Source: Polyangia bacterium (GTDB lineage Bacteria; Myxococcota_A; Polyangia; Palsa-1104; JAEUJZ01). From it: a stretch of DNA of 64,000 bases. Below, piece by piece: positions 36,988-57,665 of this stretch (its first letter is position 1; every line of letters begins with the position of its first letter). Position numbers and translations under genes: made by a program. A model generated the notes under the pieces. That model was not told the DNA's origin. It worked only from the letters and a program-made list of their open reading frames with translations, and searched no databases. The stretch covers positions 10,882-74,881 of the forward strand of contig JAXLYF010000011.1 of the NCBI GenBank assembly GCA_046351615.1. The letters are read 5' to 3'.

Positions 36988-37293
36988 GCGGCAGGCTGTG
37001 GTCCGTTTGGGAGTCTGCTTGGGAGTCCGCGTCAGAAGTGCGCAGGAGGCCCTGTGATGAGCCCAGTTGTGCGTCCAGTTGTGCGTCGTTTTGGGGGCTT
37101 ATCATTCGCTGCATGCGGGTGAGAGATCCTTCTTCAATGGACGGCCATGAAGGCTGCGGTGACACCCTGTAGGAATCGGGCGCACCGTCGCGCAGGCGGA
37201 TTGTGAGTACAGTTCTCAACTGCATCGCGAACGCAAACAATCTTGCGCGCATAGCGTCCGCTTCCCGCTTCCATACACTCGGTACATGGCGCT

Positions 37294-37299
37294 ATAATG
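37294..37299 (+). promoter_or_regulatory. TATAAT hexamer ~25-35 bp upstream of the likely tssJ start; candidate -10 element for the T6SS operon
   Basis: ggcgcTATAATgtgacc; weak -35 TTCCAT 18 bp upstream. Confidence 0.2.
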
Positions 37300-37322
37300 T
37301 GACCTTGGGGGAGCAACTCGAA

Positions 37323-37784
37323 GTGCTTGTTGTGTGGCTCAGCCAGGGCGGACAGAGAGCGACCAAGGGACTGCTTCTGCTGGTCGTCCTTTTGTCCTGT
37401 CTGTGCGGAGGCTGTGCAAGTCATCCGTGGAAGATGCAGATGACGATCGCCACCGACGCAAACAACAACTCTCCGGTGCTGATTTCCGTGGTGCTTCCCA
37501 AGAGCCAACCGCTGTTTAAAAAGCTGCTGGATATGACGGCGAAGCAGTGGTTTACGCAGCGGGAACAGCTGCTGCGCGATCATCGGCGAGAGCTGGAAGA
37601 GACGTACTTTGAGTTCATTCCGGGACAGCAAGTTCCCGAGATCAATCGCAAAGTTTCGAGCAGTGTGAGCCAAGGGATTCTGTTTGTGAACTACCAGACT
37701 CCGGGATCGCATCGCTATACCTTCGACACAAACCAGGCGCTCAAGATCAGCTTTGCTCAGCAGAGTGTGAACTTGAGCCAGTAA
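37323..37784 (+). CDS. tssJ: Type VI secretion lipoprotein TssJ (SciN/VasD family)
   Basis: Lipoprotein signal KGLLLLVVLLSCLCGGCAS then TIATDANNNSPVLISVVLPKSQPLFKKLLDMTAKQWF, matching TssJ pattern (LNpd..gr.sPv.vrvYqLks...F..ADF); the ORF track begins at ATG 37203 but a 45-aa pre-signal extension is unlikely, so start placed at in-frame GTG 37323 (or 37332). Confidence 0.6.
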   Translation: MLVVWLSQGGQRATKGLLLLVVLLSCLCGGCASHPWKMQMTIATDANNNSPVLISVVLPKSQPLFKKLLDMTAKQWFTQREQLLRDHRRELEETYFEFIPGQQVPEINRKVSSSVSQGILFVNYQTPGSHRYTFDTNQALKISFAQQSVNLSQ

Positions 37785-37802
37785 TGGGAAGTAGGAATCG
37801 GA

Positions 37803-39143
37803 ATGCCGAGCGCGCATGATCTTCCTCCGCAGATTCAGTGGCACGAAGGAATGCTGCTGGCTCCGCAGCACTTTCAGCAGATGGTGCAGCGGACGGAAAA
37901 GCTTCTTCACTACCATGTGAGTCTGGGGCTTCCGTATCAGTTTGGCGTGACGCGGCTGCGCTATGAATCGACGCAGCTTTTTACGGGAACGCTGCGTGTT
38001 ACAGAGCTGGAAGCGGTGCTTCCCGATGGCTTGGTGGTGTCGTTTAAGACCGGCCCCGCGGCAGAGCTGCAAGTGGATCTGAAAGCGCATGCAGAGAGCG
38101 CGAAGCATTCCCCGATTCCTGTCTACTTGGTGGTGCCGATTGAGCGGACTGGAGGCAGCAAAGGGGAAGGGGATCTGGGTCGGTTTCTGTCGATTCCCGG
38201 TGATGAGGTCGATGACGAGGTCAGTGGTGGGCGTCCGCTGCGGATTCCGCGACTGAAGCCTCGGCTGCGGCTGATTGCGGGGACAGAGTCTCCTCCTCCT
38301 CGCTTTGTGGCGCTGCCGCTGCTTGCGGTGGTCTACAAAAACGGCGCGTTTGTTCCTGCGGACTACATTCCGCCGCTGATTCGCGTGGAAGTGGACTCTC
38401 CGCTGGGTGAGCTGTGTGCGCAGGTGAGCAGTCTGATTCGGGCCAAAGCGACGTATCTGCTGGAAGTGATTCGGTCTCCGGCGATTACGACCAAGCCACA
38501 AGCGATTGAAGAAAATCGCAGGCTGCTTTCACAGCTGGTGCTGAATCTTCCGCCGTTTGAAGCGCTGCTGGCGACGGGAACGAGTCACCCCTATTCGCTG
38601 TATGTTGCGCTGACTGCGGTGGCCGGAAGCGTGGCAGGAGTCGGCAATCAGCTGATGCCTCCGGTCTTTCCTGCGTACGATCACTTGAACCTGCGGCGAT
38701 CGTTTGCGGAGGTTGTTCAGTTTGTGAATCAGTCGCTCAGCGACGGAATTTCTGAAGCGTTTACGGCGCTTCCGTTCCGCAATGAAAACAACCTGTTCGC
38801 ACTTCAGTTTGAAAGGGAGTGGACGCGTCGCACGGTGGTGATGGGCTTCAAGGGGGCTCCAGGGGCCACGGATCAGCAGATCACAGAGTGGGTGACGAGC
38901 AGTCTGATCGGAACCGCAAGTCGCTTCAAAGTGCTGCGTGAGCGACGACTGCTGGGGGCCACACGAACTCCTATTGATCGAGTCGAAGGTCTGGTGGCCA
39001 CGCGCGGAATGCTGCTGTTTCAGCTTCAGCTCAACCCAGAGTTTATTGTGCCGAGCGAGCCGCTGGTGATCGGAAACTCTGTGGAAAAACCACCGGGCAT
39101 TCGTCCGGCAGAGGCCTACTTATATGTTGCAAACAAAGAGTAG
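37803..39143 (+). CDS. tssK: Type VI secretion baseplate protein TssK
   Basis: N-terminus IQWHEGMLLAPQHFQQ (TssK signature W.EGM.L.PQHFQQ), 446 aa. Confidence 0.9.
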   Translation: MPSAHDLPPQIQWHEGMLLAPQHFQQMVQRTEKLLHYHVSLGLPYQFGVTRLRYESTQLFTGTLRVTELEAVLPDGLVVSFKTGPAAELQVDLKAHAESAKHSPIPVYLVVPIERTGGSKGEGDLGRFLSIPGDEVDDEVSGGRPLRIPRLKPRLRLIAGTESPPPRFVALPLLAVVYKNGAFVPADYIPPLIRVEVDSPLGELCAQVSSLIRAKATYLLEVIRSPAITTKPQAIEENRRLLSQLVLNLPPFEALLATGTSHPYSLYVALTAVAGSVAGVGNQLMPPVFPAYDHLNLRRSFAEVVQFVNQSLSDGISEAFTALPFRNENNLFALQFEREWTRRTVVMGFKGAPGATDQQITEWVTSSLIGTASRFKVLRERRLLGATRTPIDRVEGLVATRGMLLFQLQLNPEFIVPSEPLVIGNSVEKPPGIRPAEAYLYVANKE

Positions 39144-39202
39144 GAACATGCTGGGCGTCCGCAGTGTCGACGGATGGAGCGTCAACGTAACGAGGGCGCA
39201 AC

Positions 39203-40111
39203 ATGGCGAGTGAGTCCTCTGATCAGCTGTTCTTGGTGGACTACTTCCGCGAGTTCTACGCGGCGGTCCTGCATCACCGCATGCAGATCGAGCGCTCGCA
39301 GCTTCCACCCGCCGAAGAGGACAGCATTGAGATTCGCGAAGCCGACATCTTGGCCGAAGAAAAGATACCGGGTGCGGAGCAGTCACAGATTGCGCCCGAC
39401 ATTGTGCAGGCGCTCCTGATTGAGCTGATGGAGTCCCAACAGCAAGCAATTCAGCGACGGGGAGATCCGCGCGAACAGAAGCGATTTCGAGACATTCAGT
39501 ACGTGATGTCCGCGATGGCTGATGAAGTCATGCTGAGCATCGAGTGGATCGGAAAAGAGTACTGGAGCACGCATCTATTGGAAGAGCGGCTGTATGGTAC
39601 GCACGATGCGGGTACGCGCTTTTTCGACAACCTGGACTCTCTGCTTCAGAACAGAGACGCAACGCGCGCGGATGTGCTTGCGGTGTATCTGCTCGCAGTG
39701 TCACTGGGATTCCGTGGCAAGCATCGCAGCGTAAACAGTGCGGCGCAGATTGCGCACTATCGAAACCAAGCCTACGTCACGCTGTTTCAGCGCAGTCCGG
39801 CGCTACCAGAAAGCGCTCCGCTGTTTCCGCAAGCGTACGCGCACACGCTCGATGGACAGACACCAAGCTGGCTGCCACAGCTTCGTCCGTGGCTACTATC
39901 ACTGGTCGGCGTTGCGGTGTTCTATCTGCTGGTTGCGCATGTGATCTGGGATCGGCGCTCGACCTCGGTTGGGAATCGCTTGGAAGAGATTCTGCAACAC
40001 AAAGACAGCCCAGACGTAAACACACCGGCGCGCTCTGTGAACAGCTCTATGGAGCCGAAAGCAGAAGCCGCTACTGCAACGGCGAGCAGTGTAACCGTTC
40101 GAAAGAACTAG
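39203..40111 (+). CDS. tssL: Type VI secretion membrane protein TssL (DotU/IcmH family), no peptidoglycan-binding extension
   Basis: DotU-like core with LAVSLGFRGKHR (cf. LGF.G.Y motif) and single C-terminal TM PWLLSLVGVAVFYLLVAHVIW. Confidence 0.8.
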   Translation: MASESSDQLFLVDYFREFYAAVLHHRMQIERSQLPPAEEDSIEIREADILAEEKIPGAEQSQIAPDIVQALLIELMESQQQAIQRRGDPREQKRFRDIQYVMSAMADEVMLSIEWIGKEYWSTHLLEERLYGTHDAGTRFFDNLDSLLQNRDATRADVLAVYLLAVSLGFRGKHRSVNSAAQIAHYRNQAYVTLFQRSPALPESAPLFPQAYAHTLDGQTPSWLPQLRPWLLSLVGVAVFYLLVAHVIWDRRSTSVGNRLEEILQHKDSPDVNTPARSVNSSMEPKAEAATATASSVTVRKN

Positions 40112-40178
40112 GAATTTGTCGTGGATGTTTCGATGTGCTGCAAAGTGATAGGATGAATCATTCAATGCACCTGTCCGT

Positions 40179-41267
40179 GTGACAGGTTGTGATGGGGGAA
40201 CTGTGCCAAACCGTGTGCTTGGCTGGCTGATACTCTGTGTATCGGTACTGCTGCTGTGTTCAGCGCCAGCGCTTTGTCAGGAAGAGAGTGCCGCAACCTA
40301 TGAAGAGGAGGGCGCACGGCTGTTCCTGAGCAAGAGCTATGAGGGTGCGATCAAGCAGTTTACCCAAGCGTATCGACTCGATCCGAAGCCGCAGTATCTG
40401 TTTAACATCGGTCAGTCCTATCGGAAGCTGGGTCTGGCTGCGGAAGCGACAGAGTACTATCAGCGCTATCTGCACGATGAACAGAAGGTGGATCCAACCA
40501 TCTACGCAGATCTGACGACGTACATCGATCAGTACTACGCATCGCAAGAGCGTGGTGGGAGTCGTCCCAAGTCCAAGAGTGAAGCCGCAGAGCCTGCGCC
40601 GATGCTGGCCGCAGAGGAAATCGCCGATGCGGAAGAGCTGATTGCGCAGTTTGTTCGGGACTACCGAGCGGGCAATCAAGCGGTGGCCAATGAGATCATG
40701 GATCAGCTCAAGCAAGTGCTGCTGGTCCGTGGCGATCCGATCCTGATGTATCACATCGCGAACGGATACGATCAGGTCAAGAAGCGCAAGGAAGCCCTGG
40801 AATACTATCGTCGCTTCGTTGCGGTAGAGACTGCGGACCCTCGTCTTCGTCGTCGATCATTTGAACGGATTGCCCTTCTTACGCCTGCGCCGCCTGGTCA
40901 GAAGTATCTGTGGCCGAGCTTGGCGCTGGCGATTCCGGGACTTGCGGGTGTGCTGACCGGAGTGGCCCTTGCGGTTCAATCCGGGGACAACTTCCAGCAG
41001 TTCCTCAATGAAGCAGATGAACAGAAGAAGCGGGAACTCCGCGACAAAGGAGTCGGTCTGTCTATCGGATCGGTGACCTCCTATGCCATCGGTGGTGCCC
41101 TACTGGCCGGCGCAGGTGCGTTTGCGATTGTTGCCCTTAAAAAGGGAGTCCGTCAAAACGCGGAAGAGAAACGGACGGAACCCTCGCGCACAACGAAAAG
41201 CACCCTGACCGGATCGCTTCTGCCGCTGCCTGGCGGCGTGGGTCTGTCCTTGGGAGGGAATTTCTAA
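40179..41267 (+). CDS. TPR-repeat protein with signal peptide and two C-terminal TM helices, inserted between tssL and tssM
   Basis: TPR-like AIKQFTQAYRLDPKPQYLFNIGQSYRKLGLAAEATEYYQRYL; hydrophobic LWPSLALAIPGLAGVLTGVALAV and IGGALLAGAGAFAIVAL. Confidence 0.65.
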   Translation: MTGCDGGTVPNRVLGWLILCVSVLLLCSAPALCQEESAATYEEEGARLFLSKSYEGAIKQFTQAYRLDPKPQYLFNIGQSYRKLGLAAEATEYYQRYLHDEQKVDPTIYADLTTYIDQYYASQERGGSRPKSKSEAAEPAPMLAAEEIADAEELIAQFVRDYRAGNQAVANEIMDQLKQVLLVRGDPILMYHIANGYDQVKKRKEALEYYRRFVAVETADPRLRRRSFERIALLTPAPPGQKYLWPSLALAIPGLAGVLTGVALAVQSGDNFQQFLNEADEQKKRELRDKGVGLSIGSVTSYAIGGALLAGAGAFAIVALKKGVRQNAEEKRTEPSRTTKSTLTGSLLPLPGGVGLSLGGNF

Positions 41268-42715
41268 TGCTTAAGACTTCGCTTCTGTCTGCATTCCTAT
41301 CGGTGGGGCTGCTGGCCAGCACGGGCTGTACGCTGACCATGAACTATCAGCAGTGTAGCCAAGACAGCGACTGTACGGCGGCGGATGGAACGCCGGGCTA
41401 TTGCTCGTCGGATCAGCTCTGTCTGCCGAACACTCCGCTTGAGAGTCTGTGTACGATTACGATTCCTGATGCACCGTCTCCCAATGCGGTTCATCTGGGT
41501 GCGCTGCTGGATCTGCGTGACAAAAACGGACGACTGACCGAAGCGCATCGACTGCTCGCGCTGAAGCTGGGTGTCAAGCAGATTAACGATCTGGTGCAGC
41601 TGGATGGATCGCGTCCGCTGGCGATTGATGTCTGCAACGTGGGCGTGTCTGCGATCGACGCTGACAATGCGACCAAGATCCTGATCGAACAGCGCAATGT
41701 CGTGGCGATCATCGGACCGAACACGGCGTCCGCTGCGACCAACATGATCGGTCGAATCAAAGCGGCTGGCGTTCCCACGATCTCGCCTGCGATCATGGAC
41801 AGCGGAATTGCTGATGCAGCAAGTCAGGGTCTGTTTTATCGCTTGGCTCCCGTCGAAAGAGAGCAAGGCCTTCAGCTGGTTCGTGAGCTGGTGACGCTGT
41901 CTGGCGGAAAGAGCACCGCGCAGCTTGGACTTCTGTCTGTCACCGATTCCTATGGTGAAAACATTCGTCGCAAGTTCACTCCTGAGTGGCAGCGCCGTGA
42001 TCCGATCAACAACAAGACGGATCGATTCATTTCGTACAAAGACAACGATGCAAACCTGCTGAGCGTTACGACCAAGACGCTGCTTGATGCGAAGCCGAGC
42101 TTCGTGGTGCTGATTCCGGGATCGAACAGTCATCTGGTGGTGGGAGGTTTTGCGGATCTTCCGTTTGATCCGAAGAACCCCGGCTCCTTCGAGAGCACGA
42201 CCCAGGTGCTGGCTTCTTCCAGTGCGCGGACCGGAGACTTGATCAGGATGGCGCGGACCGGAGAAGACAAGATGAAGAATCATCTGTCGCGCATCACCGG
42301 AGTCGCTCCGCTGAGCTTTATTGATAGTCAAGAAGGCGCAGATTTTAAGTCGAGCTTCACGGCCACAAATCCGGGTCTGGCGCTCGAAGATGACTTCATG
42401 GTGGGCTACACCTACGACGCGCTGTTTGTGCTGGGTGCGGCCTCTGCTACGTTCAAGGGAGCGAGCCGACCGGATCAAATCCTGTCTGTTCTGCGACGCC
42501 TCAATGGCAACGCCAACTCGCTGTCTTTGACGCCGCGACTGTTCAACGAAACGGTTCAGAAGCTGGCACAGCAGCCGACCGATCCGTTCACTCTGCTTGG
42601 TGTTACAGGTGCGATTCGCTTCCAGACAGATGGCAGCCGAGATCCGGTTCTGCTCGAGCGCTGGAAGATCGATATCACCACCGGAGCGTACGTAAACACT
42701 CCGGCCAACATGTAA
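41267..42715 (+). CDS. Lipoprotein with periplasmic-binding-protein type I (LIVBP/ANF-receptor-like) fold, inside the T6SS locus
   Basis: Lipobox LLASTGCT; HLGALLDLRDKNGRL...GVKQINDL...VVAIIGPNTASAATNMIGRIKAAGVPTISP resembles Leu/Ile/Val-binding protein family N-lobe. Confidence 0.6.
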   Translation: MLKTSLLSAFLSVGLLASTGCTLTMNYQQCSQDSDCTAADGTPGYCSSDQLCLPNTPLESLCTITIPDAPSPNAVHLGALLDLRDKNGRLTEAHRLLALKLGVKQINDLVQLDGSRPLAIDVCNVGVSAIDADNATKILIEQRNVVAIIGPNTASAATNMIGRIKAAGVPTISPAIMDSGIADAASQGLFYRLAPVEREQGLQLVRELVTLSGGKSTAQLGLLSVTDSYGENIRRKFTPEWQRRDPINNKTDRFISYKDNDANLLSVTTKTLLDAKPSFVVLIPGSNSHLVVGGFADLPFDPKNPGSFESTTQVLASSSARTGDLIRMARTGEDKMKNHLSRITGVAPLSFIDSQEGADFKSSFTATNPGLALEDDFMVGYTYDALFVLGAASATFKGASRPDQILSVLRRLNGNANSLSLTPRLFNETVQKLAQQPTDPFTLLGVTGAIRFQTDGSRDPVLLERWKIDITTGAYVNTPANM

Positions 42716-42739
42716 CGCCAGGCACCTAGGACGCGTGAC

Positions 42740-45700
42740 GTGCTGATACGCATTGGCATAGCTGTTCTTTTATTGGCGGTCATCGCCGTCGGTGTCTTTT
42801 TCATCTTGCGAATGCGTCGCAAGAAGAAAGAGCAGGCCGAGGCTCCGCCGCCTCCGCCCAAAGATCCGCAGAAAGCCAAGCGGCTGGCAGAGCTGCGGAC
42901 GAGCTTGAATGCGCTGGTTGCGGAAGAGCTCAAGCAGCTCGATCAGAATGTGGGCGGAATGCCCGGACGCTATTCGATGCCGTGGTGTCTGGTGCTGAGT
43001 GAAAAAGGAGCGGGACAGAGTACGGTCCTACAGAACACCGGACTTCACATTCCGTTCCGTGGTGCGAGTGATCAGCTGGCAGAGTCCGCACACTGTCGAT
43101 TCTGGTTTTATGACAAAGGGGTTGCGATCGATCTAGGCGCGGAGGTGTGGCAAGAAGAGGAGGCCTTTGTTCACTTCTGTCATCTGCTGCGTGCGGCGCG
43201 TCCGAAGCGTCCGGTGGACTCTGTTCTGGTGCTGGTTGCGGCTGAAACTCTCGTCGGTGATGACAAGCAGAGTGAAGACAAGATCAAGGCGCAGAGTGAG
43301 CTTTTGTATCAGCGACTGCTGCGCTTTCAGCAAGAGATCTCGCTGCGTCTTCCCACCTACGTGATGATCAGCAAGAGCGATACGATTCCCGGCTTTACGG
43401 CGTTCTGCGGGGGTCTGTCTACGCATCAGCGCGAGCAGCTCGCGGGCTGGTCGTCTCCCTATCCGCTCAACATTTCGTATAACACGACCTGGGTCGATCA
43501 AGCGTTTGCAGAGCTGTACAAGACGCAGTGCGGTCTTCAGCTGGATCTGTTGGCGAGCGCAAAGCTGTCGGACAAAGAACAGGATCTGGCATTCCTTCTG
43601 CCGCGCAACACCCAAGCGCTGCGCGATCCGATGAAGCTGTATCTGGATCAGCTATTCCGGGTGAGCGTCTACAGTGAGTCGAACCTTCTGCGCGGCGTGT
43701 ACATGTGTGGAGACGCCACGATCGCCAGCGCGATGGTGCAAAAGTCTGAAGAGTCGGAAGGACTGAAGCATCCGGTCTTCATTCATGATCTGTTTGCGAA
43801 GAAGCTGTTTCCTGAAAGTGGACTGGCCAAGCCACTGAAGAAGGGAATGCTGAATCAGCAGCGTGCGCTGCGGCTGGTTCGGGTTGCGCTGGGTGCGTCG
43901 GTGCTGGTGAGCGTTCTGCTGCTGTGGACGGCGTACGCAAACCTAAGCCGTGATGTCCGCGCGGTGATGGGATTCCTAGACAAAGTTCCGGTCGGAAGCA
44001 CGCTGTCGGTTGCGCAAGACAGAGACCGCTTCGCGCAGCAGACCCAGGAGCTTCTGTCCGCGATTGGCAACGTCGCCAACAGTCGTCTGTTCAGCGTTCG
44101 GCTGCCGTCCTCGTGGCTTAGCTCGCTGGATGATGATGTTCAGGAAGCGATGCGACGCTCGTTTGAGCGCGTGGTGCTGGGCGGACTGTATGAAGGTCTG
44201 GCGCTGAAAGCCAAGCAGGTGTTGGGACTGGAAGGAGACCTGGCTGCGCCGCCACCCAGCGACGAGCCGCCTCCGGCTGGAGAGCCCGGATCAGGACGTC
44301 CCGCAGCCGCAGCAGAGCGTCTGACTTCGCGGACGGTTCAGATTCAGTCGCTTCAGAACATGCCGGAGTATCAAGAGCTGCGTGATCTGTCGCGCGCGTA
44401 TCTGGAGTTTGTTCAAAACGTCGATACCTACAATCGCTTGGGCGCGGATCATCACAAGCGCTTCGATACGGTGGTTCCGCTGGTGAAGTACGTGTTTGGC
44501 GTCGAGCTTCAGCCGATCTTTTTGCGCAATGCAGAGCTGTATCAGGAAGCGCTCGCCAATGCGACCAGTCGTTCCTTTGACATGGGACTGGTGAATCCGA
44601 AGGTACAAGCGCGAGCACGAACGATCTGCAAAGCGCTGCATCGACGGCTGTTTATCGACAACGCGATTGCGATCGAAACAGAAGAGATCTTGGCGCACGT
44701 CAGTCGCTTAAAAGCAGAGAGTGAAGGCGGCGGTGCGGACCTTCCGGTGCTGACCGAGCTGCGCGATGTTCTGTTGCGTCTGGAGCGTGATCTGGGTCGT
44801 CCAGAGCTTCAGTGGATGTCGAAGGACGCTCTGGAGCTGGGTGATCCGATGGCGGAAGTGCTGGCGTCACTTCGTCACTTTTCACCAGATGGACGGATGA
44901 GCGATGAGCTGCGTCAGGAGTGGCAGCAGTCGCATCAGCAGCTTCGGCGCAGGCTGCTGGAAGTTCAGCTTCCGGCGATGGGACTCATCCTTGTTCGTGA
45001 CAACGAAAAGCATCGCTTGGCGATGACGCAAGGTGTGGTGGAGCTGAAGGCGAACCTGGAGACGTTCCTCTCGCTTGCGTTTGTGCAGCAGAACCTGGAA
45101 AAGCCGCATGCCCAGAACTCGGAAGGTTCCTATCGCGTGGTCTGGAATGATGATCTGCTGCGTCAGTCCACTGCATTTGCGGATGCCTACGATGCGTATG
45201 TCCGCGATCGCTTGGGACAGATGTATCGCCACATCCGCGAAGTCGTAAAGAGCACTGCGCTGGAGCGACTGGGACAGAACATGCCTGCGCTGGTGGGACA
45301 AGCGCGAAGGGAAGAGCGCGTCCTGCGCTTTAGTGGCGATGTGAATGCGCTGCAAGATGAGCTAAGCAGTGAGGTCGGAGATCTGAAGCGCGTATCAACG
45401 GTGCTGCGCCAGATTCTGGAGACCTATGATCGCTTGACGCTCAAGGCTGCACATGCCGAGCTGTATCAGCAGCTGCAGGAAGACTCACGCGAGATCTTGC
45501 GCCGCATCGATCTGCTTCCAGAGCGCGAAGAGATGTATCGCGTGTCGAGCAAGCTGGCGAGCTGGCGCGGAGAGAAGCCTCCGGTCTTGGCTGCCTTTGA
45601 TGTGGAAGATGCCGATGCGCTGTCGCAGTACATCAAGACGCAGCGCAATCGCATCAAGGGCTGGGGTCGTGATTATGCCAAGGTTCCGGTGTCTCTGCTG

Positions 45701-48579: not shown

Positions 48580-48591
48580 GGAGGGGTTGCC

Positions 48592-50611: not shown

Positions 50612-50679
50612 GTCGACAAGACCGACACCATCGGTCTGTGACTTTGCTTGCTTTGCAATGAGTTAGGAAACGTCAAACG

Positions 50680-51159: not shown

Positions 51160-52957
51160 AGCCAAAGACGAGCTGCTGCGCTCCTATCAGCGCGAGCTAC
51201 AGTATCTGCGCTCGATGGGCGCGGAGTTTGCGCGAAAGTATCCGAAGATCGCGTCCCGACTTGATCTGTCTGCTGAAGCGTGTGCGGATCCCCACGTTGA
51301 GCGACTGATCGAGAGCTTTGCGTTTCTGACCGCACGACTTCAGCAGCGACTGGATGCGGACTTTCCGCTCCTGACAACTTCTCTGCTGGACTGTCTGTAT
51401 CCTCATCTTTTGCAGACCGTTCCTTCGATGTCGATTGCGCACTTCGATGTCGATCCAGAGCAAGGTCTGCCGCTGGGTGGGTTCTCTGTTCGCAAGGGCT
51501 CGCGGCTGTTTGCTCAGACGGACACCGGGGCACTCTGTCGATTCCGAACCGGCAGTGAGATCACGCTCTGGCCGATCGAGATTGTCTCTGCGCAGATTGA
51601 AGCGACGGATCGATATCCGTATCTGGATGCGTATCCCAAAGGGATCGCAATGCTGCGGCTGAAGCTGGTCTGTCAGACTGGCAGCTTCAATGAACTGGAT
51701 CTGCGATCGCTGCGTCTGTTTGTGAATGCCAGCGCAGAAGTCGCGTCCGCGATCTATGATCTGCTGACTGCATCTACCGTCGGTGTAGCGCTGCTTCCTG
51801 ATGGTCGTCCTGAAGTGCAGTATCTGGGACCGCAAGCGCTTCGTCCGGTTGGCTTGGAAGCGGATCAGGCGCTGCTTCCTTCCCCGGACTATGCGCATCC
51901 GGCGTATCGACTGCTTCAGGAATACTTTGTCTTCCCGCAGAAGTTTCTGTTCTTCGATGTCGATCTACCGCGCATCCAGCTTGCGAGAAAAAGCGCCGAT
52001 CTGCTGATCCTGCTTTCGGAAGTTCCGCCGCGCTCTGTCTCGGTTGGGAAGAGCACGTTCCTGCTGGGCTGCGCACCGATCATCAACCTGTTTGGAAAGA
52101 CAGCGGAGCCGATTCGGCTGACGCACAAGCTGCCGGAATATCAGCTCATCGCGGACAAGCGCGAAGAAAAGACCTGCGAGATTCACTCGATCGACAAGGT
52201 GTCGATGAGTGCGGATCCATCTTCCAGTCAGGTGATAGCTCCGTTCTTTTCGTTCAATCACCCAGCGAGCGGAGACCAGCATCAAGCGTTCTATTACGCG
52301 CAGCGCAGACCGACTGGACGCGCGGACATGGTGGGCTGTGACACCTATCTGTCGTTTGTCGATCTGCGCTTCAAACCGACGCAGCCAGCGACGCAGACTG
52401 TCTTTGCACACACGCTCTGTACCAACCGCGACTTGGCCGCACAGATGCCCGCACGGGCGCGACTGCAGATGGAAGACTCTGCGCCTGTGAAGTCGGTGGT
52501 CTGTCTGTCCAAGCCAACAGAGCCGATTACGCCGCCGCTGGGAGGCGCTGCGCTGTGGCAGCTGGTGTCGCATCTGTCGCTCAATCACTTGTCTCTCATC
52601 GGTGGAAGAGAGAGCCGTGATGCGCTGCGGGAGATCCTGCGACTGTATCGCATGAGTCCAACCACAGCGACGGAAAATCAGATCTTAGGAATCTATGAGC
52701 TGCGCTGTGTTCCCAAGACGCTTCAAGCGGGACGCGATGCGTGGCGCGGCTTTGTTCACGGTCAAGAAGTACAGATTGTCTTTGATGAGTCGATGTATGT
52801 CGGTCAGAGCGCGCTGATGATGTCTGCCGTGCTGAGCCGCTTCTTCGGTCTGTACACTGCGGTCAACTCATTTACAACGCTGGTGGTTCGTAGTCGCCAG
52901 CGACAGGAGGCGTGGAAGAAATGGCCACCACTGGCGGGCTCCCGCAACCTTCTGTAA
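51149..52957 (+). CDS. tssF: Type VI secretion baseplate protein TssF
   Basis: YQRELQYLRSMGAEFARKYPKIASRL...DPHVERLIESFAFLTARL...FPLLTTSLLDCLYPHLLQTVPSMSIAHF. Confidence 0.9.
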   Translation: MSSEAKDELLRSYQRELQYLRSMGAEFARKYPKIASRLDLSAEACADPHVERLIESFAFLTARLQQRLDADFPLLTTSLLDCLYPHLLQTVPSMSIAHFDVDPEQGLPLGGFSVRKGSRLFAQTDTGALCRFRTGSEITLWPIEIVSAQIEATDRYPYLDAYPKGIAMLRLKLVCQTGSFNELDLRSLRLFVNASAEVASAIYDLLTASTVGVALLPDGRPEVQYLGPQALRPVGLEADQALLPSPDYAHPAYRLLQEYFVFPQKFLFFDVDLPRIQLARKSADLLILLSEVPPRSVSVGKSTFLLGCAPIINLFGKTAEPIRLTHKLPEYQLIADKREEKTCEIHSIDKVSMSADPSSSQVIAPFFSFNHPASGDQHQAFYYAQRRPTGRADMVGCDTYLSFVDLRFKPTQPATQTVFAHTLCTNRDLAAQMPARARLQMEDSAPVKSVVCLSKPTEPITPPLGGAALWQLVSHLSLNHLSLIGGRESRDALREILRLYRMSPTTATENQILGIYELRCVPKTLQAGRDAWRGFVHGQEVQIVFDESMYVGQSALMMSAVLSRFFGLYTAVNSFTTLVVRSRQRQEAWKKWPPLAGSRNLL

Positions 52958-54000
52958 TTGATGAGCTGTATAAAGATCCGCAGCGCTTCAACTTCTTTCA
53001 GCTGGTGCGGCTGCTGGAGATGCTTGCGCCAGCGTCCGAGTCACTGGGTGAAGGTGGCGAGCCAGCACTGGAAGCGGTGCGATTCCGTTCTTCCTTTTCG
53101 CTGGCATTTCCCGCAAGTGACATCGCTGCGATCGAGCGACCGAGCACCGAAGATGGCGTCCCCACCGTAACGGTTTCGATGCTTGGCTTGGGTGGTGCGC
53201 ACGGACCGCTTCCGCACAGCATGACAGACTGGGTGCTGGAACGGAATGCAGCGCGCGATCATGCGCTGCGTGACTTTCTGGACATCTTTGATCATCGCTT
53301 GGTGTCTCTGCTGTTTCGGGTTCGTCAGCGCTGTAAGCTGGGAACAGAGTGGACATCCCCCGACGAGCATCACTTCACAGAGTTCCTGTATGCACTGATG
53401 GGAATGCTGACGGAAGGACTGCGCGAGCGGCTGAAGGTTCCTGATCGTGCGCTGCTTCGCTATGCAGGACTACTGACCAAGCAGCCGCGTGATGCGGCGG
53501 GACTGGAGCGACTCCTGACCGATCACTTTCAGGTCAAAGTGATCTGCCATCAGCTTCGCGGAATGATGCGTCCGATCGAAGAAGAGCAGTGGACAAAGAT
53601 CGGACTGAGCGGTCAAAACCAGCTGCTTGGGAGCCAAGCGCTCGTCGGAACGATGGTCTGGGATCAGCAAGCAGGAATCGAGCTGGAAGTCGGACCGCTG
53701 CCGTGGAATCGCTATCTGGACTTTTTGCCGGGACAGCCGGGACTGCAAGCGCTGATTCAGCTTGCGCGATTTTACATCGGACCAGAGTTTGAGATCTTTG
53801 TCGCGCTGCTCATCCAAGCGGAAGAGATTCCGCGCGCACGGCTGAGTCAGCCGATCAGTGACAAGCCACCTGCGTCGGAGCAGCCGGTCTTGGGATTGAC
53901 CTCGTTTCTGTCGTACGGGACCAAGCTGCGCGGGACTCCCAGAGTCGCGCTGGGTGCGGTGGCCCGATACAGCGATGAACCACTGAGGGCGACGCCGTGA
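52912..54000 (+). CDS. tssG: Type VI secretion baseplate protein TssG
   Basis: PQRFNFFQLVRLLEML (TssG N-terminal signature); overlaps tssF end and vgrG start. Confidence 0.85.
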   Translation: MEEMATTGGLPQPSVIDELYKDPQRFNFFQLVRLLEMLAPASESLGEGGEPALEAVRFRSSFSLAFPASDIAAIERPSTEDGVPTVTVSMLGLGGAHGPLPHSMTDWVLERNAARDHALRDFLDIFDHRLVSLLFRVRQRCKLGTEWTSPDEHHFTEFLYALMGMLTEGLRERLKVPDRALLRYAGLLTKQPRDAAGLERLLTDHFQVKVICHQLRGMMRPIEEEQWTKIGLSGQNQLLGSQALVGTMVWDQQAGIELEVGPLPWNRYLDFLPGQPGLQALIQLARFYIGPEFEIFVALLIQAEEIPRARLSQPISDKPPASEQPVLGLTSFLSYGTKLRGTPRVALGAVARYSDEPLRATP

Positions 54001-56033
54001 GCGATCATGATTTTCTAAGTGCATCGACTCCTGCTGCGGATGCCTTGGTCTTGGAGTCTTTTCAGGGACAGGAAGAGCTGTCTCTGCCGTTTCTGTATAC
54101 GCTTCAGTTTCTGTCCAAAGATCGCAAGCTCGACTTCAAGAAGCTGATGGGAAAGGCGGTCACGATCACGATCGCACTTCCTGACAAGTCGAAGCGCTAC
54201 ATCTGCGGAATCGTGTCGCGCTTTATTGAATCGGGATACGATCCCAAGCACACGATCTACATCGCGGAGCTGCGTCCGTGGCTGTGGCTGCTGACGCTGC
54301 ATGCGGACAATCGGATCTTTCAAAACAAGAGCGTTCCCGAGATCATCGAAGAGGTCTTTTCGGACCTCGGTCTTAAGGACTTCAAAAAGAGCCTGAAGGG
54401 AACGTACGCCAAGCGTGAGTTCTGTGTTCAGTATCAGGAGTCGAGCTTTGACTTTGTCAGCCGCCTGATGGAAGACGAAGGAATCTTCTATTACTTCGAA
54501 CACACCGACGGAAAACACACGATGGTGCTGGCCGATGATAGCGATGGCTACGCCAAGTGTACGGGCTCTGATGAAGTGCGGATGGGACTGGATGACTCTC
54601 CGAACTGTCTGCGTGACTGCACGTTTGAGGAGTCGCTGGTTTCGACAGGATACGCACTGACCGATTACAACTTCGAGATTCCTTCGACCGATCTGTTCGT
54701 GAAGACAGGCGGTGGGAGTCCGGCGCTGGTCGTCTACGATCATCCCGGAAATTACGCCAAGAAGAACGATGGCGAGAAGCTGGCCAAGCTGCGGATTGAA
54801 TCCGTTGAACATGCCCAGAAAGTGCTGCGCGCAAGTGGAAATGCGCGTGGCTTTACGTCGGGTGGAAAGTTCAAGCTGACCAAGCACGATCGCAGCGATC
54901 TCAATCAGGAGTATGTGATTCGCAGCGTGTCTCACATTGCGGATCGCGGAAACTACGGAAACTCGATCGAAGCACTGCCGGCCTCTGTGGTGTTTCGTCC
55001 ACCACGTCGTACCCGTCGACAGATGGCACTGGGAAGCCAGACTGCGGTGGTGGTTGGCAAGTCCGGTGAAGAGATGTGGACCGACAAATACGGTCGCGTC
55101 AAAGTGCAGTTTCCGTGGGATCGCAAAGGAAAGAAGGACGAAAACAGCTCGTGCTGGGTACGCGTTGCGCAGCACTGGGCGGGCAAGGGCTACGGAACGT
55201 TCTTTCTGCCGCGCATCGGTCAGGAAGTGGTGATTACGTTCATTGATGGGAATCCCGATAGACCGCTGATTACCGGCGCTGTGTATAACGCGGAACAGAC
55301 GGTTCCCTACGCACTTCCAGACAACCAGACCAAGAGCACGACCAAGTCGCGAACCAGCAAGGGCGGTGGTGGCTTTAACGAGATTCGTCTGGAAGACAAG
55401 AAGGACTCCGAAGAGATCTACGTTCATGCGCAGAAGGACATGAACATCGAGGTCAAGCACGACCGCACCGCCAAGATCGAAAATGACTGCAAGACAGAGA
55501 TCAAAAATGATCGCAGCGCGAAGATCGATAACAACGACAAGACGGTGGTGAAAAAGAACCGTGAAGTCGAAGTGACCGAAGGCGATGAGCTGCTGCAAGT
55601 GAAGAAGGGGAATCGGACGATCTCTGTCGACAAAGGCGATGAAAAGCACACCGTCAAAGGCAAGCGAGAAGTCTCTGTAGAAAAAGACGAAAAGCACAGC
55701 AACAAAGCGAAGTTCAGCCACACGGTCGATAAGGACTACATCTTGACCATCAAAGGAAACCTCACGATTGAGGTGGATGGCGACATCAAGATCAAGTCGA
55801 AGAAGGGCATCAAAGCAGAGGCCTCTGCTGCGGTGGATCTCAAGTCAGGAGCGGATATGAAGCTCAAGGCGGGAGCCAACATGAAGCAGGAAGCGGCTGT
55901 GAACATGGATGTCAAAGCGGGTGTGGGAATGAAGCTGGAAGGCGTCAACATCGACGTGAAAGCGTCAGCGATGGCGAAGCTGGAAGGCGGTGCAATGGCT
56001 GCGATCAAGGGTGCACTACTAAAGCTGAACTAA
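53997..56033 (+). CDS. vgrG: VgrG (TssI) spike protein, core form (678 aa) without C-terminal effector extension
   Basis: LESFQGQEELSLPFLYTLQFLS, RYICGIVSRF, LRPWLWLLTLHADNRIFQNKSVPEII, gp5-like C-terminal beta-helix repeats (EVKHDRTAKIENDCKTEIKNDRSAKIDNND...). Confidence 0.9.
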   Translation: MSDHDFLSASTPAADALVLESFQGQEELSLPFLYTLQFLSKDRKLDFKKLMGKAVTITIALPDKSKRYICGIVSRFIESGYDPKHTIYIAELRPWLWLLTLHADNRIFQNKSVPEIIEEVFSDLGLKDFKKSLKGTYAKREFCVQYQESSFDFVSRLMEDEGIFYYFEHTDGKHTMVLADDSDGYAKCTGSDEVRMGLDDSPNCLRDCTFEESLVSTGYALTDYNFEIPSTDLFVKTGGGSPALVVYDHPGNYAKKNDGEKLAKLRIESVEHAQKVLRASGNARGFTSGGKFKLTKHDRSDLNQEYVIRSVSHIADRGNYGNSIEALPASVVFRPPRRTRRQMALGSQTAVVVGKSGEEMWTDKYGRVKVQFPWDRKGKKDENSSCWVRVAQHWAGKGYGTFFLPRIGQEVVITFIDGNPDRPLITGAVYNAEQTVPYALPDNQTKSTTKSRTSKGGGGFNEIRLEDKKDSEEIYVHAQKDMNIEVKHDRTAKIENDCKTEIKNDRSAKIDNNDKTVVKKNREVEVTEGDELLQVKKGNRTISVDKGDEKHTVKGKREVSVEKDEKHSNKAKFSHTVDKDYILTIKGNLTIEVDGDIKIKSKKGIKAEASAAVDLKSGADMKLKAGANMKQEAAVNMDVKAGVGMKLEGVNIDVKASAMAKLEGGAMAAIKGALLKLN

Positions 56034-56034
56034 C

Positions 56035-57279
56035 ATGAGCGAAGAGTCACAGCATACACAGGACACAGCGTCCCATCCGAGCACTGGCGCAGCGGAGAGC
56101 GAGCATGTAGAGCACGATGCCGATGGCAACGTCAGCATGCGTGGACCTCTCCGTGATGGAAAGATGGACGGGGAGTTTTCCTTTTTCCAGCACGGAAAGC
56201 TGTTTCAAAAATCGCACTATAAAGACGATCAACTCGACGGAGAATCGATCGAGTACTTCCCAAGTGGAAAGGTCTGTCAGCGCGTTCATTTCAAGGCCGG
56301 AAAGATCACCGGACTCTTGCGGCGCTTTGATGAACAGGGTCGTCCTGAGCTGCTGGCTGCGTACGTTCAAGGCGAGCTACATGGCGACATGGTGACCTAT
56401 GAAAACGGTCAGATGCAGAGCCAGCAGCACCATGTCAAAGGCAAGAAGCACGGAGTCGGAATCATTTATTCTCCCGACGGAAGTCCACTGCTGTCTGCGC
56501 AGTTTCAGAACGACAAACGACATGGCGAAGCGGTCTACTTTGGACCGCGTGGCGTGGTGGTTCGTCGTGAGCCGTATGTGGAAGGACTGATTCACGGAAC
56601 CGTTCAGGACTTCATGCCAGATGGTCGGCTGCGCGAAAGCAGTCAGTATGTTGCGGGCAAGCTGCATGGTGAGTCGCTGGTGTTTCATCCAAACGGAAAG
56701 CTGCAGCGACGGACTCGCTATGAGCAGGGGGCTCCCGTCGGTACGCCGGAGCAGTTTGATGAAAAGGGGCGTCCGCTTCAGACTGCGCAGGGACCGACGA
56801 CTCCTTCGGTGGAAGCACAAGCGGCGGATGCGGCCAAGCAGTCTGCGATTCGCGGTCTGATGGATGTGGCGCGCAAGAAGGTGGTCGCTGCGGTGGTTCC
56901 TGCTGTGACTGGAGCGTTCAGCGGTGCTGCGATGCCAGCGGCTCCCGAGCTTCCCAGTGCACCGGAGCTTCCGCAAGCACCGGAGGTTCCGCAGGTTCCA
57001 GAGTCTCCGGTAGAGAAGCCTGAGCTTGGTGAAGCTGCGCAAAAGCTGGCGGAAAAAGTCAAAGAACAAGCAGCAGAGAAGGCAGCGGAGCAGGCCGCAG
57101 AAAAAGCCGCAGAAAAATCCGATGCCAAGGCGCTGGCCGCGAAGGTGGATGCGTCCGCAGCAAAGGCTGCAAAGAAAGCGCCACCACCGCCACCGCCGCC
57201 ACGCAAGGGCCTGATCTTGGAGCCTCCGAACATCGGTACGCTGCCTAGAACAGAGCCACCGACACCAAGGGGGAAGTGA
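56035..57279 (+). CDS. MORN-variant repeat protein (YwqK-like repeats) with low-complexity C-terminus (PEL/PEV repeats, AEKAAEQAAEKAAEK, poly-Pro)
   Basis: Repeated G..DG....Y..NGKL motifs (FFQHGKLFQKSHYKDDQLDGESIEYFPSGKV..., VTYENGQMQSQQHHVKGKKHGVGIIYSPDGS..., LVFHPNGKLQRRTRYEQG); tail APELPSAPELPQAPEVPQVPESP...PPPPPPPRKG. Confidence 0.7.
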   Translation: MSEESQHTQDTASHPSTGAAESEHVEHDADGNVSMRGPLRDGKMDGEFSFFQHGKLFQKSHYKDDQLDGESIEYFPSGKVCQRVHFKAGKITGLLRRFDEQGRPELLAAYVQGELHGDMVTYENGQMQSQQHHVKGKKHGVGIIYSPDGSPLLSAQFQNDKRHGEAVYFGPRGVVVRREPYVEGLIHGTVQDFMPDGRLRESSQYVAGKLHGESLVFHPNGKLQRRTRYEQGAPVGTPEQFDEKGRPLQTAQGPTTPSVEAQAADAAKQSAIRGLMDVARKKVVAAVVPAVTGAFSGAAMPAAPELPSAPELPQAPEVPQVPESPVEKPELGEAAQKLAEKVKEQAAEKAAEQAAEKAAEKSDAKALAAKVDASAAKAAKKAPPPPPPPRKGLILEPPNIGTLPRTEPPTPRGK

Positions 57280-57665
57280 TGCCAAACGCAGTATGTATGG
57301 GAGCAATGCTCAAGTGTTCGTTTGGGGTGGCTCCGGGATCGCTGATGGTGCTTCCCACCAACCTTGTGATGTCGAGTGGGCCGGTGGCAAACATCATGGA
57401 TCACAAGCCAATGGTGAACGTCATGCCCTTTGGAATGTGTCAGTCGATGGCCAATCCGATGGTGGCAGCAGCGACGGCAGCGGCCATGGGAGTCCTGACT
57501 CCGATGCCATGCATTCCCAACACGCCGGCACCGTGGATTGTCGGGGCGCCGACCGTGCTGCTGGGGAACATGCCGATCCTGAACAACTCCGCGAAGTTGA
57601 TGTGTATGTGGGCGGGCGTGATCGAGATTCTGCCTCCTGGTGTTCCGACGATCATGACTCCTTAA
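57276..57665 (+). CDS. DUF4280-family PAAR-like protein (putative VgrG tip/sharpening or cargo-adaptor protein)
   Basis: 129 aa, Cys/Met/Pro-rich; CMGAMLKCSFGVAPGSLMVLP...NVMPFGMCQSMANPMVAAATAAAMGVLTPMPCIP...LMCMWAGVIEI matches the DUF4280 PAAR-like pattern; 4-bp overlap with upstream gene. Confidence 0.7.
   Translation: MMPNAVCMGAMLKCSFGVAPGSLMVLPTNLVMSSGPVANIMDHKPMVNVMPFGMCQSMANPMVAAATAAAMGVLTPMPCIPNTPAPWIVGAPTVLLGNMPILNNSAKLMCMWAGVIEILPPGVPTIMTP

What the first reader, a model, noticed from the sequence alone, without database searches (positions are those of the whole stretch)
37203..57665. Near-complete T6SS locus (tssJKL-M-ABC-hcp-EFG-vgrG-PAAR-like) with no clpV/tssH anywhere in the 64-kb window
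All structural core genes except the ClpV ATPase are present and mostly translationally coupled. ClpV is normally encoded within the cluster, between tssG and vgrG or near tssM. Its absence within at least 20 kb on either side suggests either a distal clpV or a ClpV-independent sheath recycling mechanism (as reported for Francisella, which uses ClpB).
Basis: partly seen in the sequence, partly recalled or inferred. Interest (0 to 1): 0.55.

Follow-up and report, generated by a model that had tools for sequence, protein, structure and literature searches.

The report
ClpV-less type VI secretion locus, Polyangia
This is an intact type VI secretion gene cluster of an uncultured wastewater myxobacterium (class Polyangia) whose whole lineage cleanly lost the sheath-recycling ATPase gene clpV; that is real, but clpV-less systems are already known in Pseudomonas putida, Campylobacter and Francisella.

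Summary
Window 37203-57665 encodes a tightly packed, same-strand T6SS(i) operon: a TssJ-position lipoprotein, tssK, tssL, a TPR gene, a periplasmic-binding-protein (PBP) lipoprotein gene, tssM-A-B-C, hcp, tssE-F-G, vgrG, a MORN gene and DUF4280 (PAAR-like). No Clp/Hsp100 homologue exists in the 64 kb or in about 10 kb downstream.

About 50 related loci carry tssH exactly between tssG and vgrG. Here tssG and vgrG overlap by 4 nt (GTGA) and no remnant is left.

The loss is ancestral to a monophyletic Polyangia clade (100% bootstrap, TssC identity down to 74%). That clade also gained the TPR and PBP genes and has a TssM without a Walker A motif. Its T6SS genes remain under purifying selection (dN/dS 0.10-0.29). 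The ClpV-docking LLDxII motif of TssC has shifted to D[VI][VIL]D[ED][IL]I.

At least two other lineages (Pyrinomonadaceae; a Terriglobus-like pair) lack clpV in the same synteny.

Whether the genome holds a distal clpV could not be tested. I lean towards ClpV-independent operation.

ClpV-less T6SS(i) clades are already published, so interest is modest.

The parts
37203..37784 (+). Lipoprotein at the TssJ position. The true start is probably internal; the lipobox is ...LLSCLCGGC.
   Evidence: It has a signal peptide and lipobox. blastp finds the ORF at the TssJ position in 14 other loci, with E from 7e-22 to 3e-10. It matches no TssJ HMM and no PDB sequence. A single-sequence AF2 model was unusable, with pLDDT 41.6.
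37803..39143 (+). tssK
   Evidence: PF05936, 1.3e-42.
39203..40111 (+). tssL (DotU)
   Evidence: PF09850, 2.6e-29.
40179..41267 (+). TPR protein with a signal peptide; a clade-specific accessory gene.
   Evidence: It has TPR Pfam hits and a signal peptide. It is present in all 5 clade members and absent from the related loci outside the clade.
41267..42715 (+). Type-I periplasmic-binding-protein-fold lipoprotein; a clade-specific accessory gene.
   Evidence: Peripla_BP_6 at 1.9e-10 and ANF_receptor at 5e-7. Lipobox ...LASTGC. Its distribution is the same as that of the TPR gene. dN/dS is 0.22 against L092.
42740..46843 (+). tssM, 1367 aa, with no Walker A motif and a C-terminal 900 aa that no model recognises.
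   Evidence: IcmF-related_N at 1.2e-44; TIGR03348 matches residues 7-445 only. No G....GK[ST] motif in this TssM or in the other four clade members.
46853..47971 (+). tssA (short type)
   Evidence: TIGR03363 at 278 bits, above the 160.85-bit cut-off.
48073..48579 (+). tssB
   Evidence: PF05591, 8.6e-55.
48592..50058 (+). tssC. The N-terminal helix carries ILDNLI at residues 14-19, where ClpV-associated relatives have LLDxII.
   Evidence: PF05943 at 1e-138 and PF18945.
50123..50611 (+). hcp
   Evidence: PF05638, 2.3e-39.
50680..51159 (+). tssE
   Evidence: TIGR03357 at 81.9 bits, above the 53.2-bit cut-off.
51149..52957 (+). tssF
   Evidence: PF05947, 2e-202.
52912..54000 (+). tssG
   Evidence: PF06996, 1.8e-91.
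53997..54000 (+). The tssG-vgrG junction: GTGA, with the vgrG start codon overlapping the tssG stop codon. Related loci carry tssH/clpV at this position.
   Evidence: Sequence read directly. Synteny of the related loci. The gene at this position in L017 and L038 is TIGR03345 TssH, at 1188 and 1260 bits against a cut-off of 885.
53997..56033 (+). vgrG
   Evidence: Phage_GPD at 2.8e-91, plus Gp5_trimer_C and Phage_base_V.
56035..57279 (+). MORN-repeat protein after vgrG; a possible adaptor or effector.
   Evidence: MORN_2 at 1e-19. A homologue follows vgrG in many related loci.
57276..57665 (+). DUF4280 PAAR-like spike-tip protein
   Evidence: PF14107 at 1.5e-33. NCBIfam IglG at 63.9 bits, below its cut-off.
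57675..58547 (+). 290-aa protein of unknown function in the same operon.
   Evidence: No significant family hit. It is conserved in L092. In L094 and L095 an HTH_3-domain protein occupies this position.
58626..62642 (+). 1338-aa secreted protein with MopE metal-binding motifs; a candidate cargo or effector, conserved downstream in the clade.
   Evidence: PF11617 at 1e-20. Signal peptide. Present in L092, L094 and L095.
62659..63477 (+). Sel1-repeat protein; the last gene on this strand before the neighbourhood changes.
   Evidence: PF08238 at 5.5e-27. The genes that follow in L088 are unrelated housekeeping genes.

Best explanation
This is a functional T6SS(i) cluster of an uncultured Polyangia bacterium that is common in activated sludge. 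It belongs to the T6SS lineage whose standard gene order is tssJ-K-L-M-A-B-C-hcp-E-F-G-tssH-vgrG. This is the order I recall for P. aeruginosa H3-T6SS (i4b).

In the ancestor of a Polyangia clade, tssH/clpV was deleted cleanly from the tssG-vgrG junction. The same clade gained two periplasmic accessory genes between tssL and tssM: a TPR gene and a PBP-fold lipoprotein gene.

The machine still assembles and fires in the usual way. The membrane complex is TssJ-like/L/M, probably with TPR and PBP. The baseplate is TssEFGK plus TssA. Hcp forms the tube, TssBC the sheath, and VgrG plus DUF4280 the spike.

*Shown:* the cluster encodes no ATPase of its own, since there is no ClpV and TssM has no Walker A motif.

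*Inferred:* contracted sheaths are not recycled by a dedicated, cluster-encoded ClpV. They are most likely handled by a housekeeping Hsp100 such as ClpB, or replaced by new synthesis and proteolysis. That would give a slower system, as in V. cholerae clpV mutants, P. putida group 1.2 systems and Francisella.
For: **All other core genes are present and intact**.

**clpV is absent.**
- No ClpV or ClpB homologue or remnant is found in 64 kb plus 9 kb downstream.
- tssG and vgrG overlap at GTGA.
- About 50 related loci carry a Clp-type gene exactly there, and the two I checked are TIGR03345 TssH.

**The arrangement is real, not an assembly artefact.** Ten near-identical contigs from different public assemblies were retrieved with the same junction. 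The index lists the TssC protein in 108 blocks of the collection.

**The loss is old and the system was kept.**
- The window, L092, L094, L095 and L096 form a clade with 100% bootstrap. TssC identity within it falls to 74%.
- In the four members whose sequence reaches vgrG, the order is the same: tssK-L, TPR gene, PBP gene, tssM ... tssG then vgrG.
- In L096 a low-complexity repeat protein follows tssG and the contig then ends.
- dN/dS against L092 is 0.10-0.29 for 13 genes, with dS of 0.6-1.7.

**The ClpV-docking motif on TssC has changed.** The motif is LLDEIM in V. cholerae and co-evolves with ClpV (PMC4239648).
- LL is present in 44 of 50 loci with clpV but in 1 of 8 without it (Fisher 4e-5, not corrected for phylogeny).
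- In 29 TssC representatives taken as this clade (top hits, 73-94% identity, assigned by N-terminal pattern), the two positions are Leu in 2 of 29 and 7 of 29. In the next 88 closest TssCs they are Leu in 82 of 88 and 87 of 88. A new pattern, D[VI][VIL]D[ED][IL]I-R, is conserved in the clade.

**Precedent.** All group 1.2 T6SS(i) clusters lack clpV, and some P. putida strains with only those clusters have no ClpV-family gene (PMC5363822). C. jejuni T6SS works without clpV (PMC3667781). Francisella uses ClpB (PMC5481754).
Against: - The rest of the genome could not be searched, so a distal clpV, or a ClpV belonging to a second T6SS, is not excluded.
- The window's own motif, ILDNLI, is nearly identical to P. 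aeruginosa HsiC2's ILDSII, which does bind ClpV2 (PMC4239648). The motif change is therefore compatible with ClpV binding.
- The N-terminal helix stays strongly conserved within the clade, which may mean that some partner still docks there.
- The Pyrinomonadaceae clpV-less loci (L097, L098) keep an intact LLDTII, so loss of the gene from the cluster does not always go with motif change.
- There is no expression or activity data.
Confidence: 0.6

Rival explanations
1. clpV was relocated or is shared. The genome encodes a ClpV-family ATPase elsewhere, either as an orphan or within a second T6SS cluster, and it recycles this sheath in trans.
For: - The TssC N-terminal helix is still highly conserved in the clade.
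- The window's ILDNLI resembles the ClpV2-binding ILDSII of HsiC2 (PMC4239648).
- Large myxobacterial genomes may carry further T6SS clusters and several Hsp100 paralogues (my expectation, not tested).
- M. xanthus has clpV (MXAN_4813) in its cluster.
- In Desulfonema magnum (L099) the T6SS genes are split, so scattered arrangements do exist.
Against: - No clpV lies within 37 kb upstream or about 15 kb downstream.
- ClpV-sheath recognition is cluster-specific where tested: EAEC ClpV1 and ClpV2 are not interchangeable (PMC5048182).
- The two Leu residues that are nearly invariant in relatives with clpV have been replaced across the clade.
- In published cases of clade-wide loss, genomes with no ClpV at all exist (P. 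putida group 1.2, C. jejuni).
Confidence: 0.35
2. The cluster is a decaying, non-functional remnant, and loss of clpV was the first step.
For: A core gene is missing. TssM lacks a Walker A motif, and its C-terminal part matches no model.
Against: - All 12 other core ORFs are intact in the clade members examined, some of which are cut off by contig ends and which have diverged to dS above 1. dN/dS is 0.10-0.29.
- The genes are tightly coupled.
- The Walker A motif is also absent from TssM in relatives that have clpV, such as the Pseudomonas loci, L017 and L040.
Confidence: 0.03
3. An assembly or binning artefact removed clpV.
For: The source is metagenomic.
Against: The identical tssG-vgrG junction appears in ten independently assembled contigs from NCBI, ENA and Logan samples, and in the divergent relatives whose sequence reaches vgrG.
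Confidence: 0.01

Closest known systems
Canonical T6SS(i) with the order tssJKLMABC-hcp-EFG-tssH-vgrG (the P. aeruginosa H3-T6SS / i4b-like lineage; the subtype name is from my own knowledge).
   Same: - The gene order is the same.
- In the concatenated TssB/C/F/G tree the window groups at 100% bootstrap with 22 loci, including Pseudomonas loci ordered A'M'L'K'J'|B-C-hcp-E-F-G-ClpV-vgrG.
- TssC is 61-73% identical.
- The lipoprotein at the TssJ position, the MORN gene and the DUF4280 gene are shared.
   Different: - There is no tssH.
- TPR and PBP genes are inserted between tssL and tssM.
- The LLDxII docking motif on TssC is altered.
ClpV-less T6SS(i) of Pseudomonas putida (K2/K3, group 1.2) and of Campylobacter jejuni / Helicobacter hepaticus.
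   Same: clpV is absent from every cluster of a whole clade while the 12 other core genes are kept. The published proposal is that ClpV is dispensable or replaced by ClpB-type ATPases (PMC5363822, PMC3667781).
   Different: - The phylogenetic group and organisation differ: K2/K3 are two divergent operons, whereas here there is a single co-directional operon in the H3-like group.
- The host is a myxobacterium.
- Here the site of the deletion can be seen, because close relatives still carry the gene.
Francisella T6SS(ii), which uses ClpB to disassemble the sheath.
   Same: There is no clpV in the island. The spike tip is a DUF4280/IglG-type PAAR-like protein (NCBIfam IglG at 1.5e-17, below its cut-off).
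   Different: The sheath, baseplate and membrane proteins here are canonical T6SS(i) families (VipA/VipB at 1e-55 and 1e-139, TssF at 2e-202), not Igl proteins. Use of ClpB is only inferred here.
Myxococcus xanthus T6SS (MXAN_4800-4813).
   Same: It is a myxobacterial T6SS(i).
   Different: M. xanthus keeps clpV (MXAN_4813) next to its cluster (table in PMC4239648). I did not compare the sequences directly.

Membership tests
T6SS(i) (13 core components) | Contractile sheath TssB + TssC | tested here: met
   PF05591 at 8.6e-55; PF05943 at 1e-138 plus PF18945 at 4e-44.
T6SS(i) (13 core components) | Tube and spike: Hcp, VgrG, and a PAAR or PAAR-like tip | tested here: met
   PF05638 at 2e-39; Phage_GPD at 3e-91; DUF4280 at 1.5e-33.
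T6SS(i) (13 core components) | Baseplate TssE/F/G/K plus TssA | tested here: met
   TIGR03357 above its cut-off; PF05947 at 2e-202; PF06996 at 2e-91; PF05936 at 1e-42; TIGR03363 above its cut-off.
T6SS(i) (13 core components) | Membrane complex TssL + TssM | tested here: met
   DotU at 3e-29; IcmF-related_N at 1e-44. TIGR03348 scores only 164 bits against a cut-off of 388, because the periplasmic part is unmatched.
T6SS(i) (13 core components) | Outer-membrane lipoprotein TssJ | tested here: inconclusive
   The protein is a lipoprotein at the right position, and it is homologous to the lipoprotein at that position in the Pseudomonas loci. It matches no TssJ Pfam or NCBIfam model and no PDB sequence, and the AF2 model failed.
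T6SS(i) (13 core components) | TssH/ClpV AAA+ unfoldase encoded with the cluster | tested here: not met
   tblastn with ClpB and ten TssH proteins gives E of 0.2 or worse in the window. There is no AAA+ Pfam hit and no clpV in the 10 kb downstream.
ClpV-independent T6SS(i) (P. putida group 1.2 / Campylobacter type) | clpV is absent from all clusters of the clade while the other core genes are conserved | tested here: met
   Five clade members were examined, four through to vgrG. dN/dS is 0.10-0.29.
ClpV-independent T6SS(i) (P. putida group 1.2 / Campylobacter type) | No ClpV-family gene anywhere in the genome | not testable with these tools
   No tool searches the rest of the source MAG, and the single scan of genome contigs was used on TssC.
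ClpV-independent T6SS(i) (P. putida group 1.2 / Campylobacter type) | Phylogenetic membership of group 1.2 | not tested
   No P. putida K2/K3 or Campylobacter sequences were available. The synteny described for K2/K3 (two divergent operons, PMC5363822) differs from the single operon here.
Francisella-type T6SS(ii) | Igl-family sheath, baseplate and membrane proteins (IglA/B, PdpB, DotU, IglE) | tested here: not met
   The proteins match canonical T6SS(i) models strongly. The only Igl-related matches are weak and below cut-off: IglG at 63.9 of 200 bits, and IglI at E = 0.0015.
Francisella-type T6SS(ii) | Sheath disassembly by ClpB | not testable with these tools
   This needs genetics or imaging. 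The organism's ClpB was not retrievable.
H3-T6SS-like (i4b) lineage | Synteny J-K-L-M-A-B-C-hcp-E-F-G-(H)-vgrG and phylogenetic grouping with the Pseudomonas loci of that order | tested here: inconclusive
   Synteny and the 100% bootstrap grouping are shown. Equating those Pseudomonas loci with H3/i4b rests on my memory of PA2360-PA2373, not on a comparison made here.

The most novel reading that the evidence does not exclude
A widespread clade of activated-sludge Polyangia runs a T6SS(i) that encodes no ATPase of its own: no ClpV, and no Walker A motif in TssM. The genome has no ClpV-family protein at all. The re-patterned TssC N-terminal helix (D[VI][VIL]D[ED][IL]I-R in place of S-LLDxII) has been re-tuned to recruit a housekeeping unfoldase such as ClpB. 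The clade-specific periplasmic TPR and PBP-fold lipoproteins form a ligand-sensing extension of the membrane complex. Loss of clpV has recurred, in up to three lineages, within one T6SS subtype.
Probability: 0.4. Interest if true: 0.5.

Novelty: new member of a known kind. Interest (0 to 1): 0.3.

Why it matters
ClpV is counted among the 13 core T6SS components, yet several lineages do without it. This locus adds a case in which the loss can be reconstructed exactly. Close relatives keep tssH between tssG and vgrG. The loss pre-dates a long period of purifying selection on everything else, and it coincides with a change in the TssC helix that ClpV normally grips.

That makes the clade a natural comparison set for asking how contracted sheaths are recycled without ClpV, and which TssC residues encode unfoldase specificity.

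It also matters for annotation. T6SS detectors that require tssH would call these abundant wastewater predators T6SS-negative or 'incomplete'.

It is not a new kind of system.

Tried and rejected
1. **Hidden or degraded clpV.** I ran tblastn with E. coli ClpB and ten sister TssH proteins, a six-frame Walker A scan, and Pfam on 20 flanking ORFs. Nothing was found.
2. **clpV just beyond the window.** An identical contig (L088) covers 10 kb more and shows housekeeping genes only. Walking further was not possible, because look-ups accept only window proteins or earlier search hits.
3. **Finding the source genome among species representatives.** These were very useful for synteny, but the genome-wide clpV search could not be done.
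4. **Confirming TssJ.** Pfam and NCBIfam at relaxed thresholds, a 12-sequence profile against PDB sequences, and a single-sequence AF2 model (pLDDT 41.6) all gave no support.
5. **One ancestral loss for all clpV-less loci.** The NJ backbone is too weak to decide (bootstrap 13-42%).
6. **The gene after tssG in L096 as a ClpV substitute.** It is a low-complexity repeat protein with no P-loop.
7. **A second protein-database search with ClpV to look for a Polyangia orphan.** I considered this and did not run it. Only the best 120 hits are listed and they cannot be tied to one genome, so the cost was not justified.
8. **Promoter and terminator scan of the operon.** Nothing rose above shuffled background.
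Full report
**What is in the window**

The region 37203-63477 is one co-directional gene array. Pfam and NCBIfam identify the following:

| Gene | Coordinates | Note |
|---|---|---|
| tssK | 37803-39143 | |
| tssL | 39203-40111 | |
| tssM | 42740-46843 | |
| tssA | 46853-47971 | short TIGR03363 type, above its cut-off |
| tssB | 48073-48579 | |
| tssC | 48592-50058 | |
| hcp | 50123-50611 | |
| tssE | 50680-51159 | |
| tssF | 51149-52957 | |
| tssG | 52912-54000 | |
| vgrG | 53997-56033 | |
| MORN-repeat gene | 56035-57279 | |
| DUF4280 gene | 57276-57665 | PAAR-like; weakly IglG-like |

The first ORF (37203-37784) has a lipobox and sits at the TssJ position. blastp finds its homologue at that position in 14 other loci, including Pseudomonas loci (E down to 7e-22). 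However, no TssJ model, PDB sequence or usable AF2 model supports the name.

One is a signal-peptide TPR protein (40179-41267). The other is a lipoprotein with a type-I periplasmic-binding-protein fold (41267-42715).

Downstream lie a 290-aa protein of unknown function, a 1338-aa secreted protein with MopE motifs and a Sel1-repeat protein.

Ten of the 17 junctions are 24 nt or shorter, and five of those are overlaps.

**clpV really is absent**

- tblastn with E. coli ClpB gives nothing better than E = 1.8.
- Ten genuine TssH proteins taken from sister loci give nothing better than E = 0.23 in the window.
- The only G....GK[ST] motif in any ORF of 80 aa or more is in a low-complexity protein.
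- Pfam on 20 flanking ORFs finds no AAA+ domain.
- An identical contig from another sample extends 10 kb past the 1338-aa gene (L088). It holds Sel1, asd, an outer-membrane receptor, a glyoxalase and a fatty-acid hydroxylase.
- The exact TssC protein occurs on many independently assembled contigs: the index lists it in 108 blocks. Ten near-identical contigs were retrieved with the same gene order, so an assembly artefact is excluded.

**Source organism**

NCBI names the window's TssC (MFO0622673.1) and TssF as 'Polyangia bacterium'. Cluster-mates are named 'Myxococcales bacterium'. Samples include wastewater metagenomes.

**Where clpV should be**

A scan of species-representative genomes with TssC returned 80 loci of 61-73% identity. 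tblastn mapping of all window proteins plus ClpB onto them gives one dominant order: J-K-L-M-A-B-C-hcp-E-F-G-ClpV-vgrG, often followed by the MORN and DUF4280 genes.

The gene between tssG and vgrG in L017 and L038 scores 1188 and 1260 bits on TIGR03345 (TssH), against a cut-off of 885.

In the window, the tssG stop codon and the vgrG start codon overlap as GTGA at 53997-54000. The gene was removed without a scar.

**The loss is clade-wide and old**

TssC relatives at 85%, 76%, 75% and 74% identity (L092, L096, L095, L094) all carry tssK-L, the TPR gene, the PBP gene and tssM-A-B-C-hcp-E-F-G.

- In L092, L094 and L095 vgrG follows tssG directly.
- In L096 a low-complexity repeat protein follows tssG and the contig then ends.

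In a neighbour-joining tree of concatenated TssB/C/F/G (1498 columns, 58 loci, 100 bootstraps), these five form a clade at 100%. It sits inside a 100%-supported group of 23 loci that includes the Pseudomonas loci with the divergent J-K-L-M-A arm. I recognise that layout as H3-T6SS-like, from memory.

Nei-Gojobori dN/dS between the window and L092 is 0.10-0.29 for 13 genes, including the TPR and PBP genes, with dS of 0.6-1.7. The system has therefore been maintained by selection long after clpV was lost.

**Other clpV-less lineages**

- L097 and L098 (Pyrinomonadaceae) have the same order without clpV and without the TPR and PBP genes. Their TssG is fused to a C-terminal cNMP-binding domain.
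- L009 and L027 (Terriglobus-like) also lack clpV.
- In the tree they are not reliably sister to the Polyangia clade (bootstrap 13-42%). Between one and three losses are possible.

**A sequence signal that bears on the mechanism**

[quoted passage not shown] Presence of the LLDEII-type motif co-evolves with the ClpV groove type (PMC4239648).

| Comparison | With clpV / other top hits | Without clpV / this clade |
|---|---|---|
| Loci with 'LL' at the motif | 44 of 50 | 1 of 8 |
| Leu at motif position 1 in TssC representatives | 82 of 88 | 2 of 29 |
| Leu at motif position 2 in TssC representatives | 87 of 88 | 7 of 29 |

- For the locus comparison, Fisher's test gives 4e-5. It is not corrected for shared ancestry.
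- The 29 'clade' representatives are the top TssC hits (73-94% identity), assigned to the clade by their N-terminal pattern. Synteny was checked for only some of them.
- The clade's flanking residues became fixed as D-[VI][VIL]-D-[ED]-[IL]-I-R. The helix is still constrained, but differently.

This favours loss of the canonical ClpV contact. It is not decisive, for two reasons. The window's ILDNLI is close to HsiC2's ILDSII, which binds ClpV2. The Pyrinomonadaceae loci keep LLDTII.

**No ATPase in the cluster**

TssM of all five clade members lacks a Walker A motif. This is also true of the Pseudomonas-type relatives that do have clpV, so it is not linked to the loss. It does mean that this operon encodes no NTPase at all.

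**Comparison with what is known**

ClpV-less T6SSs are documented.

- All group 1.2 T6SS(i) clusters (P. putida K2/K3) lack clpV. Some strains carrying only those clusters have no ClpV-family gene (PMC5363822).
- C. jejuni and H. hepaticus clusters lack it and are functional (PMC3667781).
- Francisella uses ClpB (PMC5481754).
- Some X. oryzae loci lack it (PMC9048695).
- M. xanthus, by contrast, keeps clpV (MXAN_4813).
- Papers on myxobacterial secretion systems that I searched do not mention tssH status in Polyangia.

**Verdict**

I put about 0.6 on operation without a dedicated ClpV (ClpB or simple turnover), 0.35 on a distal or shared ClpV, and very little on decay or artefact.

This is a new lineage showing an already-described variation of T6SS(i). 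Its modest extras are a reconstructable deletion site, a shifted docking motif and two clade-specific periplasmic accessory genes.

Noticed in passing
window 40179-42715: A signal-peptide TPR protein and a type-I periplasmic-binding-protein-fold lipoprotein (Peripla_BP_6/ANF_receptor) are inserted between tssL and tssM, and the two genes overlap each other. They are present in all five Polyangia-clade loci, absent from the roughly 80 other related loci, and under purifying selection (dN/dS 0.19-0.22). I know of no T6SS accessory ('Tag') protein with this fold. They may be a ligand-sensing or envelope-spanning addition to the membrane complex.
   Followed up: partly
window 42740-46843: TssM (1367 aa) has no Walker A motif, and its C-terminal 900 aa or so match no Pfam or NCBIfam TssM/IcmF C-terminal model. 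Across the whole 64-kb window, only one G....GK[ST] motif occurs in any ORF of 80 aa or more.
   Followed up: partly
window 32232-35771: A 1179-aa protein lies just upstream on the same strand as the T6SS. It has a long helical N-terminal part and a Lys/Ala/Gly/Asp-rich tandem-repeat tail (33-nt unit x 8.2 copies at 98% identity; 75-nt unit x 4.1 at 96%). It produces a strong purine skew (AT skew up to 0.45). In relative L096, a different low-complexity repeat protein sits directly after tssG.
   Followed up: partly
L097 14403-15812; L098 14341-15771: In the clpV-less Pyrinomonadaceae loci, TssG is fused to a C-terminal cyclic-nucleotide-binding domain (PF00027, 3e-21). The fusion sits exactly where tssH would follow. 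This hints at cNMP control of the baseplate.
   Followed up: no
window 37203-37784 (and the TssJ position in L017, L025, L027, L086 and others): The lipoprotein family at the TssJ position in this T6SS lineage, including the Pseudomonas loci, is not recognised by the Pfam or NCBIfam TssJ models or by a profile search of PDB sequences. Invariant residues include W46, F47, P70, G98 and H100 of the mature window protein.
   Followed up: partly
window 57675-63477: The genes downstream of the spike genes vary within the clade. A 290-aa protein of unknown function is replaced by an HTH_3 (XRE-type) protein in L094 and L095. It is followed by a large secreted MopE-motif protein (1338 aa) and a Sel1-repeat protein. 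These are a possible cargo and helper set.
   Followed up: no
window 6737-15503: Two very large adjacent VIT + von Willebrand A proteins (1556 and 1422 aa, the first with C-terminal TPRs) lie in the GC-richest part of the window (0.64-0.65, against 0.57 in the T6SS region).
   Followed up: no
window 607-1944: A PP2C phosphatase is fused to a cyclic-nucleotide-binding domain, 35 kb upstream of the T6SS. No FHA, kinase or TagF-type T6SS regulators were seen near the cluster.
   Followed up: no
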